Shown here: one piece after another, positions 9,994-13,628 of the stretch | How positions within the stretch are numbered: position 1 is the first letter of the stretch | How the letters are laid out: the number at the start of each line of letters is the position of its first letter | Assembly: GCA_963718895.1 (NCBI GenBank) | Contig: CAVRAG010000007.1 | Coordinates: 128,001-192,000 of the forward strand | From: an uncultured Nitrososphaerota archaeon | GTDB taxonomy: Archaea; Thermoproteota; Nitrososphaeria; Nitrososphaerales; Gagatemarchaeaceae | Length of the DNA: 64,000 nt | Reading direction: 5' to 3' | The notes under the pieces: generated by a model | Databases searched by the model: none | Told to the model about the DNA's origin: nothing | Seen by the model: only the letters and a program-made list of their open reading frames with translations | Made by a program: the position numbers and the translations under genes

Positions 9994-10505
9994 CTACTTC
10001 CGCATCTCTTTGGCAGCCGCTCTGACGGATGTGATTATGTTCTGGTAGCCGGTGCACCGGCAGAGGTTTCCCGAGAGGCCGAGCTTGATCTCGTCGTCCG
10101 TCGGATTCGGGTTCTCCTTGAGCATCCAGTAGGCCTCCATTATCATCCCGGGGGTGCAGAAGCCGCACTGCAGGCCGTGGTTGTCCCAGAAGGCCTGCTG
10201 GAGGGGATGAAGGGCCCCGTCGCGGGCCAACCCCTCTATCGTCTCGACCCGCGCCCCGTCAGCCTGGACGGCGAGCAGCGGTGCAGGACTTTATCGACTT
10301 GCCGTTAAGGACCACGGTGCAGGCGCCACAGTTGGACGTCTCGCAACCCACGTGCGTGCCCGTGAGCCCGGCGACGTCGCGGATGAAGTGGACGAGCAGC
10401 AGCCGCGGCTCGACTTCCCTCCTGTAGTCCACGCCGTTGATGTTAACGGAGATGCTTCTCAGCCCTGACCTCGCCGTCCTTTGACCTGGCGGAGGCTCTC
10501 GCCAT
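9994..10505 (-). CDS. coxS: CoxS/CutS-type (2Fe-2S) subunit of a molybdenum hydroxylase (frameshifted)
   Basis: [25 protein letters not shown] and GNLCRCTGY motifs across frames. Confidence 0.88.
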
Positions 10506-11386
10506 CAGCGGGCACCCCCCTTGGCTCTGCCTACGGCCAGCTGGAGGCCGCGCCGGGTGTAGACCTTTGCCATCTCCTTCTTGTACTCCGCCGACCCCCT
10601 CAGCGGGTCTGAGGATGGCTGTGCATCTTCCGAAGCCGCCTCGGCCGCCTCTTCGATCACCTTCGGAGTCAGGGGCCTTCCCAGAAGCGCAGCCTCTGCC
10701 TTCGCCGCTCTGAGGTTCTTGTTCCCCAGGGCTGTCAGTCCGATCCCGGCGTAGGCGCACGCGCCGCTCCTGTCTATGGTCACCTGCACCCCGACCGCCG
10801 CGGTCGCAAAGTCTCCCGTCCTTCTCTCGAGCTTGACGTAGGCGCCGCCGCTTCTGGCTGGAGGGATCGGGATGCTTATCTGGGTCAACAGCTCTGTCGG
10901 GCTGAGCGCCGATGTGAAGGTATCGACGAGGAAGTCGTCTATCGTCATGGTCCGCTCCTTCGAGGGACCTTTTATTCTCAGGGACCCTCTTACGGCGAGG
11001 ATTGCCGCGCCCCAGTCTCCGCTCGGATCGCAGTGTGAGAGCGAGCCTCCCATCGTGCCCATGTTTCTGACCTGTGGGTCCCCGATGGTGCCTGCGCACT
11101 CAGAGAGGATGAAGGCCTTCTCCTTGATGAGCTTCGACCGCTCTATGTCGTGATGGCGCGCAAGCGGGCCCACGAGTATGTTCCCGCCTGACTCCTTGAT
11201 GTAATCCATCCCGGGGATCCTGTTGATGTCGACTATGTACGCCGGCGACCCGAGCCTCAGCTTCATGACGGGCAGAAGGCTCATCCCGCCTGCCAGGACC
11301 TTCGCGTCGGAACCGTACTTCTTGAGAAGCGCGGTCGCGTCAACTACCGACTCGGGGGCAAAATACTCGAACTTGCGCGGTACCAT
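10505..11386 (-). CDS. coxM: CoxM/CutM-type FAD-binding subunit of a molybdenum hydroxylase
   Basis: AKVLAGGMSLLPVMKLR, IGDPQVRNMGTMGGSL, DPLRGSAEYKK; start MVPRKFEY. Confidence 0.88.
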   Translation of the reverse strand: MVPRKFEYFAPESVVDATALLKKYGSDAKVLAGGMSLLPVMKLRLGSPAYIVDINRIPGMDYIKESGGNILVGPLARHHDIERSKLIKEKAFILSECAGTIGDPQVRNMGTMGGSLSHCDPSGDWGAAILAVRGSLRIKGPSKERTMTIDDFLVDTFTSALSPTELLTQISIPIPPARSGGAYVKLERRTGDFATAAVGVQVTIDRSGACAYAGIGLTALGNKNLRAAKAEAALLGRPLTPKVIEEAAEAASEDAQPSSDPLRGSAEYKKEMAKVYTRRGLQLAVGRAKGGAR

Positions 11387-11441
11387 GTCGCGTGGCCCGT
11401 CGGGAGTGATTTTTGTAGATAAAGCTTCTGCTGTCCAGCTT

Positions 11442-12742
11442 TGGTAAGTTGACGGGCCATGCGTGGCGGTTAAATGGGTCGCGGGCATTTCCTACCATTG
11501 CGAGCGACAAAGTGCGTCGTCCAGTCATATGAAGCCGATGGCCTAAGCGGCCTTCTTGCCGAATGTCTCACCCTGACCTACAACGGCATCAACTATGCTC
11601 AGGAGCACAAGATTGACGACAGGAAGGGGATGAAGGGGTTCTACCGGACGCTCAACAGACTCGAAGCTGCCTTCGTGCTACAAGGTGGCCGTGATTGGAA
11701 GGGCCTGCGAGGTCGTCGCGAGCAGGAAGAAGAGCGAGAGGCGCGGCGTGAAGACGAGGCATCCGAAGCCTCTCAGGCCCGTGGCCTGTATAGTCTCGGG
11801 ATTCTTCATCACCATGAAAGGGAGATTGTTCGTTCCTCTGCGCCGAGACAGATATTTCGACGCCCAGCTCAACCGGCACGTGATTGAGACGCTTGCAGGC
11901 AAGAAGGTTAGGAGCCTCACGATAACACCCGATAGGCTGTCGTTCTGCTACTCGGAAGAGGTCGAAGCCGCACCAGTGAAGACGGTCTACGGCGTGGACA
12001 GGAACGAGAAGAACATCACGTTCGGAGACAAGGACGGTGTGATTCAGATGGACATGGCGAAGGCCGTTAAGATGAGGCAGACGACGAGGGAGATCGTCGG
12101 CTCGTTCAGGAGGAACGACGTGAGGGTGAGGCGGCAGCTCGCCCGCAAGTACTGGAAGAGGTGCAACGACAGGACCAACAACCTCCTTCACGCCACCACG
12201 AACTTCATCGTCGGGACCGCTGCAAGGAACGGGGCGGCCCTCGCCCTCGAAGACCTCACAGACATCGGGAAGATGTACCGGAGGGGTAACGGTCAGGGAA
12301 ATGATTACAGGTTCCGGTTGAACTCATGGCCTCACTCGAAGGCCAAGCAGATGCTCGAATACAAGGCCGCTTGGAACGGAATGACCACAATTGCGCTTAC
12401 CAAGTCTGACACCAGAGGATCCTCATCGGAGTGCTCGGCGTGTGGGGAGAAGCTTCACAACCCAGAGAAGGGCGATGTCGCGCACAAGCGGATGCTCTGG
12501 TGTGAGAACTGTAAGAGTTGGACGGACAGGGACGTGAACGCGGCCCTGAACCTGTCCACGAGGGGGCTTGCAAGGTTCGCGAGTTCCCTTCCCGAGCCGA
12601 AGGGTCGCTCGCAACAAGCTGATCTTGAAACGAGGGAGAAAGGGCTGGCAGGTGAAGCGGTGAAGGGGAACGGGACGCGGACCCTAATCCTCCGAGTCGA
12701 TGCCAGCAAGCTGGTCGGTGGGCATGGCCCGTCGACTTACCA
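11442..12742 (+). mobile_element. Transposase-less TnpB element bounded by a 21-bp inverted repeat
   Basis: TGGTAAGTTGACGGGCCATGC (11442-11462) and GCATGGCCCGTCGACTTACCA (12722-12742) are reverse complements at 20/21 positions and enclose only tnpB. Confidence 0.75.
11498..12740 (+). CDS. tnpB: TnpB RNA-guided endonuclease (frameshift near 11663; 3' end uncertain)
   Basis: RuvC-I GVDRNEKN, RuvC-II ALEDLTDI, Zn finger CSACG..CENC, RuvC-III DRDVNAALNL; N-terminus (TTG 11498, MRATKCVVQ) is in another frame. Confidence 0.88.
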
Positions 12743-12761
12743 GAACCTGCTGACAGGCGCG

Positions 12762-13628
12762 CTAGGAGCTCGTCGGGGCGGGAGACTCGCTGGGCGCGAG
12801 CTCCTTGTGAGGGAAGTGCTTCCCGCGCCTCGTCGCGGTGACGTCGGCCATTATGCTGAGGGCTATCTCCTCGGGGGTGACGGCCCCTATGTCTGCCCCG
12901 ATGGGGGCGTGTATCGACTGGATCAGGGGCTCGGGGACCCCGCTCTTTCTCAGCGCCTCGAGGTCGTCTCTGATTCGCTGGGCGCTCGCCATGATGCCGA
13001 CGAACCTTACCCCCTTCCTGGTGAGAGTCTCAAGGGTCTTCACGTCCCTCTCCCCCTTGGTGAGCACCACCACCGAGTCGGAGGCGGAAAACGGGAAACC
13101 GTCCAAGTCGTAGTCCAGGTCGGTGATGAGGGTGTCGGGTTCCTGTGATAGTATCGGAAGATGGTCTATCACCACCGTCTCGTATCCGAGCATGCCTCCG
13201 AGGCGGACCAGCCCGTCCTCGATGTCGTCCTTGCCTCCCTGGCCCACAAGGACCAATCTGTCCGTGGGCAGATAGGGGTCCACGTATATCTCCATCATCC
13301 CTCCGCACTTGACCTCGACATAAATCTCATCCGGGTTCTTGTTCTTCAGGGTCCCGTCCAGGGCACCCCTGGCATCCTCGAGGTAGACCTTGACGACCTT
13401 CGCCTTGCCCGTGTGCAGCGCCTCCATGGCCATCGTCGCTATCGCGGACTCTGGACAGACGCCTCCCACGGTCCCCTGGATGATCCGGCCATCCTTCGAG
13501 ACCACGGCCTTGAAGCCTGGCTTCCCGATAGACGAACCATGGATTCTCACGACGGTCGCAAGGACGAACGGCTCCCTCCTTTCGGCGAGGTCGTTCATGA
13601 CCCGGGTGAGGTCCTTTACCTTAGGCAT
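12762..13628 (-). CDS. xdhC: XdhC/CoxF family Mo-hydroxylase maturation factor
   Basis: LATVVRIHGSS, GTVGGVCPE, CGGMMEIYVDP and IHAPIGADIGAVTPEEIALSIMA motifs. Confidence 0.9.
   Translation of the reverse strand: MPKVKDLTRVMNDLAERREPFVLATVVRIHGSSIGKPGFKAVVSKDGRIIQGTVGGVCPESAIATMAMEALHTGKAKVVKVYLEDARGALDGTLKNKNPDEIYVEVKCGGMMEIYVDPYLPTDRLVLVGQGGKDDIEDGLVRLGGMLGYETVVIDHLPILSQEPDTLITDLDYDLDGFPFSASDSVVVLTKGERDVKTLETLTRKGVRFVGIMASAQRIRDDLEALRKSGVPEPLIQSIHAPIGADIGAVTPEEIALSIMADVTATRRGKHFPHKELAPSESPAPTSS

What the first reader, a model, noticed from the sequence alone, without database searches (positions are those of the whole stretch)
11428..12756. TnpB-only element bounded by inverted repeats
Seen: tnpB with all three RuvC acidic residues, no TnpA, serine recombinase or DDE gene, enclosed by a 20/21 inverted repeat (11442-11462 and 12722-12742). 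Looser symmetry extends outward (CTGTCCAGC versus GCTGACAG), and CTGCTG occurs on both flanks (11428-11433, 12747-12752) as a doubtful target duplication. It sits between xdhC and the coxM promoter. Knowledge: IS200/IS605 elements use subterminal hairpins and, like IS607, typically lack terminal inverted repeats; TIR-associated relatives are best known as eukaryotic Fanzors. Inference: a non-autonomous TIR element carrying TnpB and mobilised in trans, possibly a distinct archaeal OMEGA element class.
Basis: partly seen in the sequence, partly recalled or inferred. Interest (0 to 1): 0.8.

Follow-up and report, generated by a model that had tools for sequence, protein, structure and literature searches.

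The report
TnpB element with IS6-type ends
A decayed copy of an RNA-guided nuclease gene (tnpB) sits in a small mobile element whose inverted ends and 8-bp target duplication are those of IS6-type cut-and-join transposons, not of the hairpin-ended family that normally carries tnpB.

Summary
The inverted repeat is real: 20 of 21 bases, 0 of 100 shuffles. It is the inner part of a 26-bp terminal inverted repeat, 11437-11462 against 12722-12747, matching at 22 of 26. The element is 1311 bp and is flanked by a decayed 8-bp target duplication (6 of 8). Relatives hold the unoccupied xdhC-coxM site.

Dozens of related tnpB copies in Nitrososphaerota MAGs share this build: ends that open with GG and a CTGT core, and 8-bp duplications that differ from copy to copy. 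Elements in the same genus that encode IS6-family DDE transposases carry the same ends (13-14 of 14 bases for three of four), the same duplication length and the same target choice. Y1 TnpA and serine recombinase genes are almost absent.

The best reading is a non-autonomous IS6-type element carrying tnpB and its guide RNA, moved in trans. The focal copy is a relic, with a +1 frameshift and a lost stop codon. Insertions lie just upstream of host TATA boxes, always with the left end facing the promoter.

Other DDE-linked TnpB branches are published; I found no report of an IS6 link.

The parts
10505..11386 (-). coxM-type FAD-binding subunit gene, the host gene whose promoter faces the element
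   Evidence: Pfam PF00941 at 4.2e-45 and PF03450 at 1.9e-23. The start codon at 11386 was read.
11416..11424 (-). TATA-like box of the coxM promoter, in flank DNA, 13-21 nt left of the element
   Evidence: It is present in the unoccupied sites of relatives. It lies at the -21..-15 AT-rich peak shared by the family and about 30 nt upstream of the coxM start. Its function as a promoter is inferred.
11429..11436 (.). left copy of the 8-bp target site duplication (decayed)
   Evidence: It matches 12748-12755 at 6 of 8 bases; the first five (TGCTG) are identical. Relatives' empty sites hold this stretch once.
11437..11462 (+). left terminal inverted repeat (26 bp); the outer 8 bases have diverged
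   Evidence: It matches the reverse complement of 12722-12747 at 22 of 26, with the inner 21 at 20 of 21.
11470..11475 (+). the element's own TATA-like box for tnpB
   Evidence: It is conserved in position in the left ends of relatives and lies 22 nt before the conserved TTG start. Promoter function is inferred.
11498..11665 (+). tnpB, N-terminal part, in the frame of the conserved TTG start at 11498 (in frame with ATG 11474)
   Evidence: Translations. The start codon is conserved in 17 relatives listed.
11666..11666 (+). approximate site of the one-base insertion that shifts the tnpB frame
   Evidence: The frames switch here. The internally deleted copy in the same genome and the intact relatives read through in one frame.
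11667..12747 (+). tnpB, remaining part, with RuvC I/II/III and the zinc finger. There is no stop codon; the family's stop position is TAC at 12738-12740.
   Evidence: Pfam PF07282 and translation. In relatives the stop codon lies inside the right TIR.
12600..12747 (+). omegaRNA-like scaffold overlapping the 3' end of tnpB. The conserved core runs from about 12640. The 3' strand of the last stem, 12735-12741, lies inside the right TIR.
   Evidence: The consensus structure has 23 pairs, 10 of them with compensatory changes. 95.5% of cells are paired against 82.5% in shuffles (0 of 500 reach the observed value) and 26-43% when slid. The 5' limit is approximate, and no RNA was observed.
12722..12747 (+). 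right terminal inverted repeat (26 bp), ending at the conserved element terminus
   Evidence: The terminus is shared by 4 of 4 copies in the same genome and 24 of 25 in the genus. A contig of run X2 matches up to 12747 and then diverges.
12748..12755 (.). right copy of the 8-bp target site duplication; also the first bases of the presumed guide (about 12748-12763)
   Evidence: The guide role is inferred from the position of guides in characterised TnpB systems (established knowledge).
12762..13628 (-). xdhC-type maturation factor gene, whose 3' end lies 14 nt from the element
   Evidence: Pfam PF13478 at 7.3e-24 and PF02625 at 1.6e-18.

Best explanation
Window 11437-12747 is a 1311-bp non-autonomous transposable element. 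It carries a TnpB / omegaRNA (OMEGA) module between IS6-family-type terminal inverted repeats.

It was inserted by a DDE transposase supplied in trans by IS6-type elements of the same lineage. That transposase made an 8-bp target duplication just upstream of the coxM core promoter. The right TIR does double duty. It is the transposase's end, it holds the tnpB stop codon in intact relatives, and it forms the 3' strand of the last omegaRNA stem. The guide therefore starts with the duplicated 8 bp and continues into the flank.

By analogy with characterised TnpB systems, an intact module would cut the unoccupied allele and so favour retention or homing of the element.

The focal copy is a relic. 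It has a +1 frameshift, no stop codon, a diverged outer left end and a decayed duplication.

Shown: the ends, the duplication, the empty site, the family-wide architecture, the shared ends with IS6-transposase elements, and the conserved RNA structure. Inferred: that the IS6 transposase is the mobilising enzyme, that the RNA is made and guides TnpB, and the homing role.
For: 1. Ends of the focal copy. The IR is non-random. All 8 relatives' xdhC-coxM junctions printed are unoccupied, and they hold the duplicated stretch once.

2. Family-wide TIR plus 8-bp duplication. I scored 31 of the 40 named loci. The 9 dropped had cut flanks or odd match coordinates: L070, L072, L086, L087, L089, L093, L095, L097, L107.
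- The flanking 8-mers match 8 of 8 in 11 loci and 7 of 8 in 7 loci. Left/right chimeric controls gave 1 and 4.
- The combined TIR+TSD score is 18 or more in 15 of 31 loci, against 0 of 31 controls.
- The 8-mers differ from copy to copy.
- More distant copies in other families of the phylum keep the build: L112 has a TIR of at least 25 bp and a 9-bp repeat, and L116 and L117 score 7 of 8.

3. The partner.
- PF13610 (IS6/IS240 DDE) is found in 19 of 23 genomes of the genus.
- Four transposase-bearing elements have clear ends and perfect 8-bp duplications: one of 794 bp in the same genome, two in G007 and one in G022.
- Their first 14 end bases match the consensus of 44 tnpB-element ends at 14, 13, 13 and 9 of 14. 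Random GG-starting 14-mers average 4.8 and reach 10 or more in 0.13%.
- NCBIfam NF033587 (IS6 transposase) is the best hit for the three tested.
- The published IS6 hallmarks are an 8-bp duplication, GG tips and a cTGTt core (PMC7986276, passages).

4. Usual TnpB partners are missing.
- Y1 TnpA: 0 hits in this genome (80.5% complete) and hits in 1 of 23 genus genomes.
- Resolvase: hits in 1 of 5 genomes, and not near a tnpB.
- G007 is a single contig, 95% complete. It holds at least 3 tnpB copies and 3 IS6 DDE hits, but no Y1.

5. Recent activity. The same genome has three elements of 249-257 bp with the same ends, an omegaRNA-like core, and perfect or 7 of 8 duplications.

6. RNA structure.
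Against: - No transposase was ever seen inside a tnpB element, so mobilisation by IS6 enzymes is circumstantial.
- The only IS6 element found in the same genome matches the consensus end at just 9 of 14. Its differences mostly fall on variable positions.
- Boundary scanning found clear ends for only 1 of the 12 IS6 loci fetched. One IS6-like element in G009 has quite different 29-nt ends, so several IS6 lineages coexist.
- G021 has six or more tnpB copies but no PF13610 hit. It is 69% complete.
- Two of the three transposases tested score below the NCBIfam cut-off (102 and 87 bits against 125). Harmer and Hall argue that archaeal 'IS6' elements may not belong to the IS6/IS26 family (PMC6807381, passages).
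- In the focal copy the outer 8 bases of the left end match at only 5 of 8 and the duplication at 6 of 8. Its own boundary therefore rests partly on the family pattern.
- No RNA data exist, and no TAM could be derived.
- The genomes are MAGs, so the frameshift could be an assembly error. No read data covered it.
Confidence: 0.8

Rival explanations
1. An ordinary IS200/IS605 (IS1341-type) TnpB-only element, moved as single-stranded DNA by a Y1 TnpA in trans. On this view the inverted repeat is a by-product of similar subterminal hairpins.
For: The protein is a TnpB. The right end contains a hairpin, 12715-12734, with a compensatory change in a second copy. Most solo tnpB genes are filed this way in the literature (PMC4810608, PMC3119063, passages).
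Against: That family makes no target duplication and has no TIRs. Here 8-bp duplications flank the copies and the repeats reach the very tips. The left end has no matching hairpin. Y1 TnpA is absent from this genome and found in 1 of 23 genus genomes.
Confidence: 0.03
2. A chance nesting: an IS1341-type tnpB that once landed inside an unrelated IS6-derived miniature element, so that the two are not one functional unit.
For: Short elements with the same ends exist. This IS6 lineage also carries other cargo.
Against: Copies at dozens of different loci, spanning 48-100% protein identity and several families of the phylum, each have their own duplication at the TIR tips. The tnpB stop codon and the last omegaRNA stem lie inside the right TIR. 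No inner IS605-like boundary is visible. An ancient capture event is compatible with the main explanation; the point at issue is that the unit now moves as one.
Confidence: 0.05
3. A TIR element moved by a DDE transposase of another family that also makes 8-bp duplications (ISL3, IS1595, IS5/ISH1 and the like), not by IS6-type enzymes.
For: An 8-bp duplication and GG-initial ends are not unique to IS6 (recalled). The same-genome IS6 element matches the end consensus at only 9 of 14.
Against: PF01610 (ISL3 DDE) is found in 0 of 23 genus genomes. The only transposase genes found between such ends are IS6-type, in 4 of 4 elements. Other families were not searched one by one.
Confidence: 0.07
4. 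A domesticated TnpB or guide RNA kept at the coxM promoter as a regulator (TldR-like), not a transposon relic.
For: It sits immediately upstream of a core promoter. Domesticated TnpB repressors are known (PMC10705468; search listing and abstract only).
Against: The gene is frameshifted while the nuclease residues are kept. All 8 relatives' sites printed are empty. The same promoter-edge position is shared by unrelated insertions, including transposase-bearing ones.
Confidence: 0.02

Closest known systems
IS200/IS605 family, IS1341 group (TnpB-only elements)
   Same: A TnpB with the RuvC triad and zinc finger. A structured RNA overlaps the 3' end of the gene and runs to the element's right tip. 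There is no transposase in cis, and internally deleted RNA-only derivatives exist (compare the PATEs of PMC3119063).
   Different: This element has terminal inverted repeats that reach the tips and an 8-bp target duplication. It has no 4-5-nt target motif abutting the left end and no Y1 partner in the genomes. The published family definition excludes TIRs and duplications.
IS6 / IS26 family, archaeal branch, and its MITEs
   Same: An 8-bp duplication and short TIRs with GG tips and a CTGT core. Transposase-bearing relatives in the same genomes have near-identical ends.
   Different: No transposase lies inside; the cargo is tnpB plus guide RNA. The 2021 review lists a single IS6 member with a passenger gene and two MITEs (PMC7986276, passages). 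The marked TATA-adjacent, oriented target choice was not in the passages I read. Whether archaeal 'IS6' elements belong to the family is disputed (PMC6807381).
DDE-associated TnpB branches (IS630; ISL2 and IS1031 of IS5), Altae-Tran et al. 2023
   Same: Prokaryotic TnpB within elements that have symmetrical ends and are moved by DDE enzymes (PMC10691335 and PMC13565253, passages).
   Different: Those branches were defined by a DDE gene beside tnpB. Here the transposase is only in trans, and it belongs to a family not named in the passages I read ('IS6' as a whole word: 0 hits in the main text). I did not see the supplement or the tree.
Fanzor1 in eukaryotic DDE transposons
   Same: A TnpB-family nuclease as cargo of TIR/TSD transposons, with the guide adjoining the element end.
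   Different: The host here is prokaryotic, the protein is TnpB-sized (about 420 aa), and the transposon family is different.

Membership tests
IS200/IS605 (IS1341 group) | Encodes TnpB (RuvC-like nuclease with zinc finger) | tested here: met
   PF07282 at 3.5e-15. An intact relative hits NF040570 at 4.5e-19, though at 69 bits it is below the 100-bit cut-off. It also hits solved TnpB and Cas12f chains.
IS200/IS605 (IS1341 group) | No terminal inverted repeats; similar subterminal hairpins at both ends instead | tested here: not met
   A 26-bp TIR reaches both tips and is seen family-wide. A hairpin is found only at the right end.
IS200/IS605 (IS1341 group) | No target site duplication; insertion 3' of a fixed 4-5-nt motif | tested here: not met
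   8-bp duplications score 8 of 8 in 11 and 7 of 8 in 7 of 31 loci, against 1 and 4 in controls. The bases just left of the duplication vary.
IS200/IS605 (IS1341 group) | A Y1 (HUH) TnpA available in the genome for mobilisation | tested here: not met
   PF01797 gives 0 hits in this genome (80.5% complete) and hits in 1 of 23 genus genomes. Incompleteness is a caveat.
OMEGA module (TnpB + omegaRNA) | Conserved structured RNA at the 3' end of tnpB, ending at the element tip | tested here: met
   23 pairs, 10 of them compensatory. 95.5% paired, 0 of 500 shuffles as high, and slid controls at 26-43%. RNA expression and processing could not be tested: no RNA holder was listed.
OMEGA module (TnpB + omegaRNA) | RNA-guided, TAM-dependent DNA cleavage | not testable with these tools
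   This needs biochemistry or a depletion assay. No clear TAM emerged from the 5 nt left of the duplication.
IS6/IS26 family (as a non-autonomous derivative) | 8-bp target site duplication | tested here: met
   The family trait is taken from PMC7986276.
IS6/IS26 family (as a non-autonomous derivative) | Short TIRs with GG tips and a cTGTt core | tested here: met
   Base counts at 44 ends: G at position 1 in 37, G at position 2 in 38, and C-T-G-T at positions 5-8 in 37, 36, 40 and 32. The third published motif ('caaa') is only partly kept.
IS6/IS26 family (as a non-autonomous derivative) | IS6-type DDE transposase encoded between the ends | tested here: not met
   Only tnpB lies between the ends. 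IS6-type transposases occur in trans. It is therefore a derivative, not a member in its own right.
IS6/IS26 family (as a non-autonomous derivative) | Cointegrate (copy-in) transposition | not testable with these tools
   This needs an assay.
DDE-associated TnpB branches (PNAS 2023) | A DDE transposase gene next to tnpB in one element | tested here: not met
   None of the copies examined has one. The one adjacency, in G009, is two separate elements.
DDE-associated TnpB branches (PNAS 2023) | Placement of the protein in branches DDE-1 to DDE-6 of the published tree | not tested
MITE | TIRs and a duplication, no transposase, miniature size | tested here: inconclusive
   The first three traits are met. 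At 1311 bp with a (broken) gene it is not miniature. True 249-257-bp derivatives exist in the same genome.

The most novel reading that the evidence does not exclude
Across Nitrososphaerota, a whole clade of OMEGA modules has left the hairpin-ended IS200/IS605 vehicle and rides on IS6-type inverted-repeat ends, moved in trans by DDE transposases.

The right TIR has been co-opted as the last stem of the guide RNA, so each insertion's 8-bp duplication becomes the start of its guide. RNA-only miniature derivatives spread alongside.

The whole lineage, transposase-bearing members included, is aimed in one orientation at the upstream edge of host core promoters (BRE/TATA), possibly by reading the bound transcription factors. 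This would be a prokaryotic parallel both to Fanzor-in-DDE-transposon and to promoter-targeting retroelements.
Probability: 0.45. Interest if true: 0.85.

Novelty: new variant of a known kind. Interest (0 to 1): 0.66.

Why it matters
TnpB is the ancestor of Cas12, and current accounts tie its biology to scarless single-strand or serine-recombinase transposition. A lineage in which tnpB and its guide RNA travel on DDE-type ends, with the transposase only in trans, bears on three points.

- **Missed associations.** Gene-neighbourhood surveys cannot detect such links, so solo tnpB genes filed as IS1341 may hide other vehicles.
- **A test case.** It allows a test of whether RNA-guided homing pays off for elements that make target duplications. 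The occupied site keeps only an 8-base match to the guide, which is a simple way to tell self from non-self.
- **Annotation.** It gives exact boundaries for annotating these elements in ammonia-oxidiser relatives.

The oriented insertion next to TATA boxes, if mechanistic, would be a rare case of promoter-directed integration in archaea. For the host gene itself the finding is minor: the coxM core promoter is left intact.

Tried and rejected
- **ISL3 as the partner.** I suspected it from the look of the ends. PF01610 was found in 0 of 23 genus genomes, so I dropped it.
- **Y1 TnpA and serine recombinase as partners.**; see the rival explanations.
- **The 13-nt match at 11390-11402.** It matches the repeat (D9 and I6). 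Relatives without the element carry a similar coxM leader, so I judged it native flank and probably chance.
- **A CTGCTG or 5-bp duplication, or none at all.** Family comparison replaced this with an 8-bp duplication.
Only 8 of 16 bases match when aligned outward, counted by eye. I did not pursue it.
- **Boundary scanning of the 12 IS6 loci.** It gave clear ends for only 1.
- **A TAM from the bases left of the duplication.** They are T-rich but show no clear motif.
- **The closest out-of-genus copies, L110 and L111.** Only weak left-end matches and no duplication.
- **Expression.** No RNA holder was listed.
- **Laying four DNA runs.** This gave only short, low-depth contigs. None covered the frameshift or the left junction.
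I redid the analysis from coordinates.
- **Not available.** ISfinder and paper supplements could not be consulted.
- **Not done.** I ran no protein structure or complex prediction, because no claim depends on one.

Full report
**The observation.** The arms 11442-11462 and 12722-12742 are 21 nt long and match at 20 positions (I1). The motif occurs only at these two places in the window at up to 3 mismatches, and none of 100 shuffles gave two matches. Between the arms lies a tnpB (PF07282 at 3.5e-15) and no other credible gene. The flanks are an XdhC-type gene and a CoxM-type gene, both on the minus strand. The acidic RuvC motifs and the zinc finger can be read in the translation. They fall on invariant columns of 15 intact relatives.

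The gene is broken, however. One extra base near 11666 shifts the frame. No stop codon lies inside the element, so the frame runs on to 13148, antisense to xdhC.

**True ends.** The right end is fixed by comparison.
- The other three copies or fragments in the same genome stop being similar at the position that corresponds to 12747.
- 24 of 25 copies from the genus carry the same terminal bases there; the 25th is cut by a contig end.
- A contig of run X2 matches up to 12747 and then diverges.

With the right end at 12747, the repeat extends to 26 bp, 11437-11462 against 12722-12747, matching at 22 of 26. The losses are in the outer 8 bases of the left arm.

Eight relatives' xdhC-coxM junctions were printed and all are unoccupied. 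They carry once the stretch that the focal locus carries on both sides of the element. The two 8-mers, 11429-11436 and 12748-12755, agree at 6 of 8.

**The family.** The genus holds many related copies at 70-79% DNA identity, at different loci. A scan of GTDB species genomes gave 40 loci, all from MAGs titled Nitrososphaerota or Thaumarchaeota, among them Candidatus Gagatemarchaeum stordalenia.

I scored TIR and flanking 8-mers on 31 of these 40 loci. The nine dropped had cut flanks or odd coordinates and are named in the For line.
- The flanking 8-mers are identical in 11 loci and differ at one base in 7. Chimeras of left and right halves from different loci gave 1 and 4.
- The combined score reaches 18 in 15 of 31 real loci and in 0 of 31 controls.
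- The 8-mers differ from locus to locus.

At least 15 copies encode intact proteins of about 420 aa. Others are frameshifted at various places, so the focal frameshift looks like decay rather than a programmed shift.

In a sample of 301 genomes of the phylum, only 6 have a close relative at E of 1e-40 or better. Some of these distant copies, in small AT-rich genomes, keep the same ends and duplication: L112, L116 and L117.

**Who moves it.** I first suspected ISL3, but no such transposase exists in 23 genus genomes. Searching four genomes for the end motif turned up pairs of inverted ends around other things.
- In the single-contig genome G007, a 2785-bp and a 4626-bp element each encode an IS6-family DDE transposase plus cargo.
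- In the window's own genome, a 794-bp element encodes an apparently complete 221-aa transposase.
- In G022, a 1978-bp element has ends matching at 18 of 18.

All four have perfect 8-bp duplications. Their first 14 end bases match the consensus of 44 tnpB-element ends at 14, 13, 13 and 9 of 14. Random GG-starting 14-mers average 4.8 and reach 10 in 0.13%. NF033587 (IS6 transposase) is the best NCBIfam hit for the three tested, though only one reaches the cut-off.

PF13610 occurs in 19 of 23 genus genomes. Y1 TnpA occurs in 1 of 23 and not in this genome. Resolvase occurs in 1 of 5, away from any tnpB.

The published traits of the IS6 family are an 8-bp duplication, GG tips and a cTGTt core (PMC7986276, passages). 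IS200/IS605 and IS607 are defined as lacking both TIRs and duplications (PMC4810608, PMC3119063 and PMC13565253, passages).

**The cargo.** The last ~110-150 nt of the element are the most conserved part of the family. They also occur without the gene. Three elements of 249-257 bp in the same genome have the same ends and perfect or 7 of 8 duplications. There is also an internally deleted copy and a right-end fragment.

An alignment of 22 right ends gives a consensus structure of 23 pairs, 10 with compensatory changes. 95.5% of cells are paired, against 82.5% in shuffles (0 of 500 as high) and 26-43% when partners are slid.

The 3' strand of the last helix lies inside the right TIR (focal 12735-12741). 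In intact relatives the tnpB stop codon lies there too. In the focal copy that codon reads TAC, and two of the seven pairs of this helix are mismatched.

That this RNA is an omegaRNA whose guide begins with the duplicated 8 bp is inferred from characterised TnpB systems. No RNA run was available.

**Target choice.**
- Of 38 loci, 24 passed a boundary filter; two of those look mis-called. In these 24, the fraction of A/T rises to 0.8-1.0 at positions -21 to -15 from the left end. There is no peak on the right.
- The same box, at the same distance and on the same side relative to the gene's strand, is seen for 9 of 9 further elements. These include all three IS6-transposase elements tested there and the G022 element.
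- In 21 of 24 loci, a mechanically called ORF of 80 aa or more reads leftward, with its first possible start 25-90 nt from the left end.
- Of 10 such ORFs tested, 7 have Pfam domains beginning near their N-termini. The focal one is coxM.

The box is therefore most simply the TATA box of a divergent host gene, and the element sits just upstream of its core promoter. Transposase-bearing elements behave alike, so this is a property of the vehicle, not of TnpB. It remains open whether it reflects sequence preference, recognition of bound factors, or selection after insertion.

**Comparison with what is known.** The element works like an IS1341-type OMEGA element in what it carries and like a non-autonomous IS6 derivative in how it moves.

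TnpB linked to DDE transposases is already published, for IS630, ISL2 and IS1031, with symmetrical ends (PMC10691335 and PMC13565253, passages). Those links were defined by a neighbouring transposase gene.

My searches found nothing that links TnpB with IS6:
- TnpB + 'IS6 family' + archaea
- TnpB / IS6 / omegaRNA as whole words
- TnpB + DDE transposase + non-autonomous + IS1341
- TnpB + terminal inverted repeats + target site duplication + archaea

In the PNAS paper's main text, 'IS6' as a whole word has 0 hits. Its supplement, which may hold more, was closed, and ISfinder was not available. The IS6 review lists one member with a passenger gene and two MITEs.

**Verdict.** The partner family is now named and the ends and duplication corrected. 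The focal copy is an inactive relic. The class it belongs to is a new variant of a known kind.

The main weaknesses are these:
- Mobilisation by IS6 enzymes is circumstantial.
- All genomes are MAGs.
- No RNA or activity data exist.

Noticed in passing
Flanks of L068-L106, focal 11416-11424, and G000 C1:30554, C4:192054, C8:385939, C8:574167: Every well-bounded element of this lineage, transposase-bearing ones included, has a TATA-like box 13-21 nt outside one end. It is always the end upstream of the carried gene, and usually about 25-35 nt from the start of a divergent host gene. This looks like oriented insertion at the upstream edge of core promoters.
   Followed up: partly
G000 C4:191798-192054, C8:385683-385939, C8:574167-574415 (outside the window): Three near-identical 249-257-bp elements with the same inverted ends, an internal TATA-like box and the omegaRNA-like core, but no gene. 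They have perfect or 7 of 8 8-bp duplications, which suggests recent mobilisation of RNA-only derivatives.
   Followed up: partly
L049 537-5162 and L050 535-3319: IS6-type elements with cargo. One carries an 804-aa N6-adenine DNA methylase and a 406-aa transposase with a SWIM-like zinc finger. The other carries four passenger ORFs, among them a DUF5678 protein and an aspartyl-protease-like protein. This lineage seems to pick up cargo readily.
   Followed up: partly
L108 1820-3143 and 3145-5070: In G009 a tnpB element has inserted exactly at the tip of another IS6-like element, whose 29-nt inverted ends are unrelated to the GG...CTGT type. At least two IS6-like lineages therefore coexist in the genus.
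   Followed up: partly
window 11390-11402: A 13-nt stretch in the coxM leader matches the core of the inverted repeat at 12 of 13 bases (direct to the right arm, inverted to the left arm). Relatives without the element have a similar leader, so it is probably chance.
   Followed up: yes
G000 C7:118683-119370 (outside the window): A 688-bp element with the same type of ends and a perfect 8-bp duplication. A further end-like motif lies inside it at 119291. Its content was not examined.
   Followed up: no
window 11685-13148: The 487-aa ORF listed here is an artefact. It is the tnpB frame reading through the lost stop codon and on, antisense to xdhC.
   Followed up: yes
G000 C7:547705-548900 and C8:545239-546581 (outside the window): Two more distant tnpB copies in the same genome, at 40-47% protein identity. 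One is frameshifted. The other, 1343 bp, is bounded by the same type of ends.
   Followed up: partly
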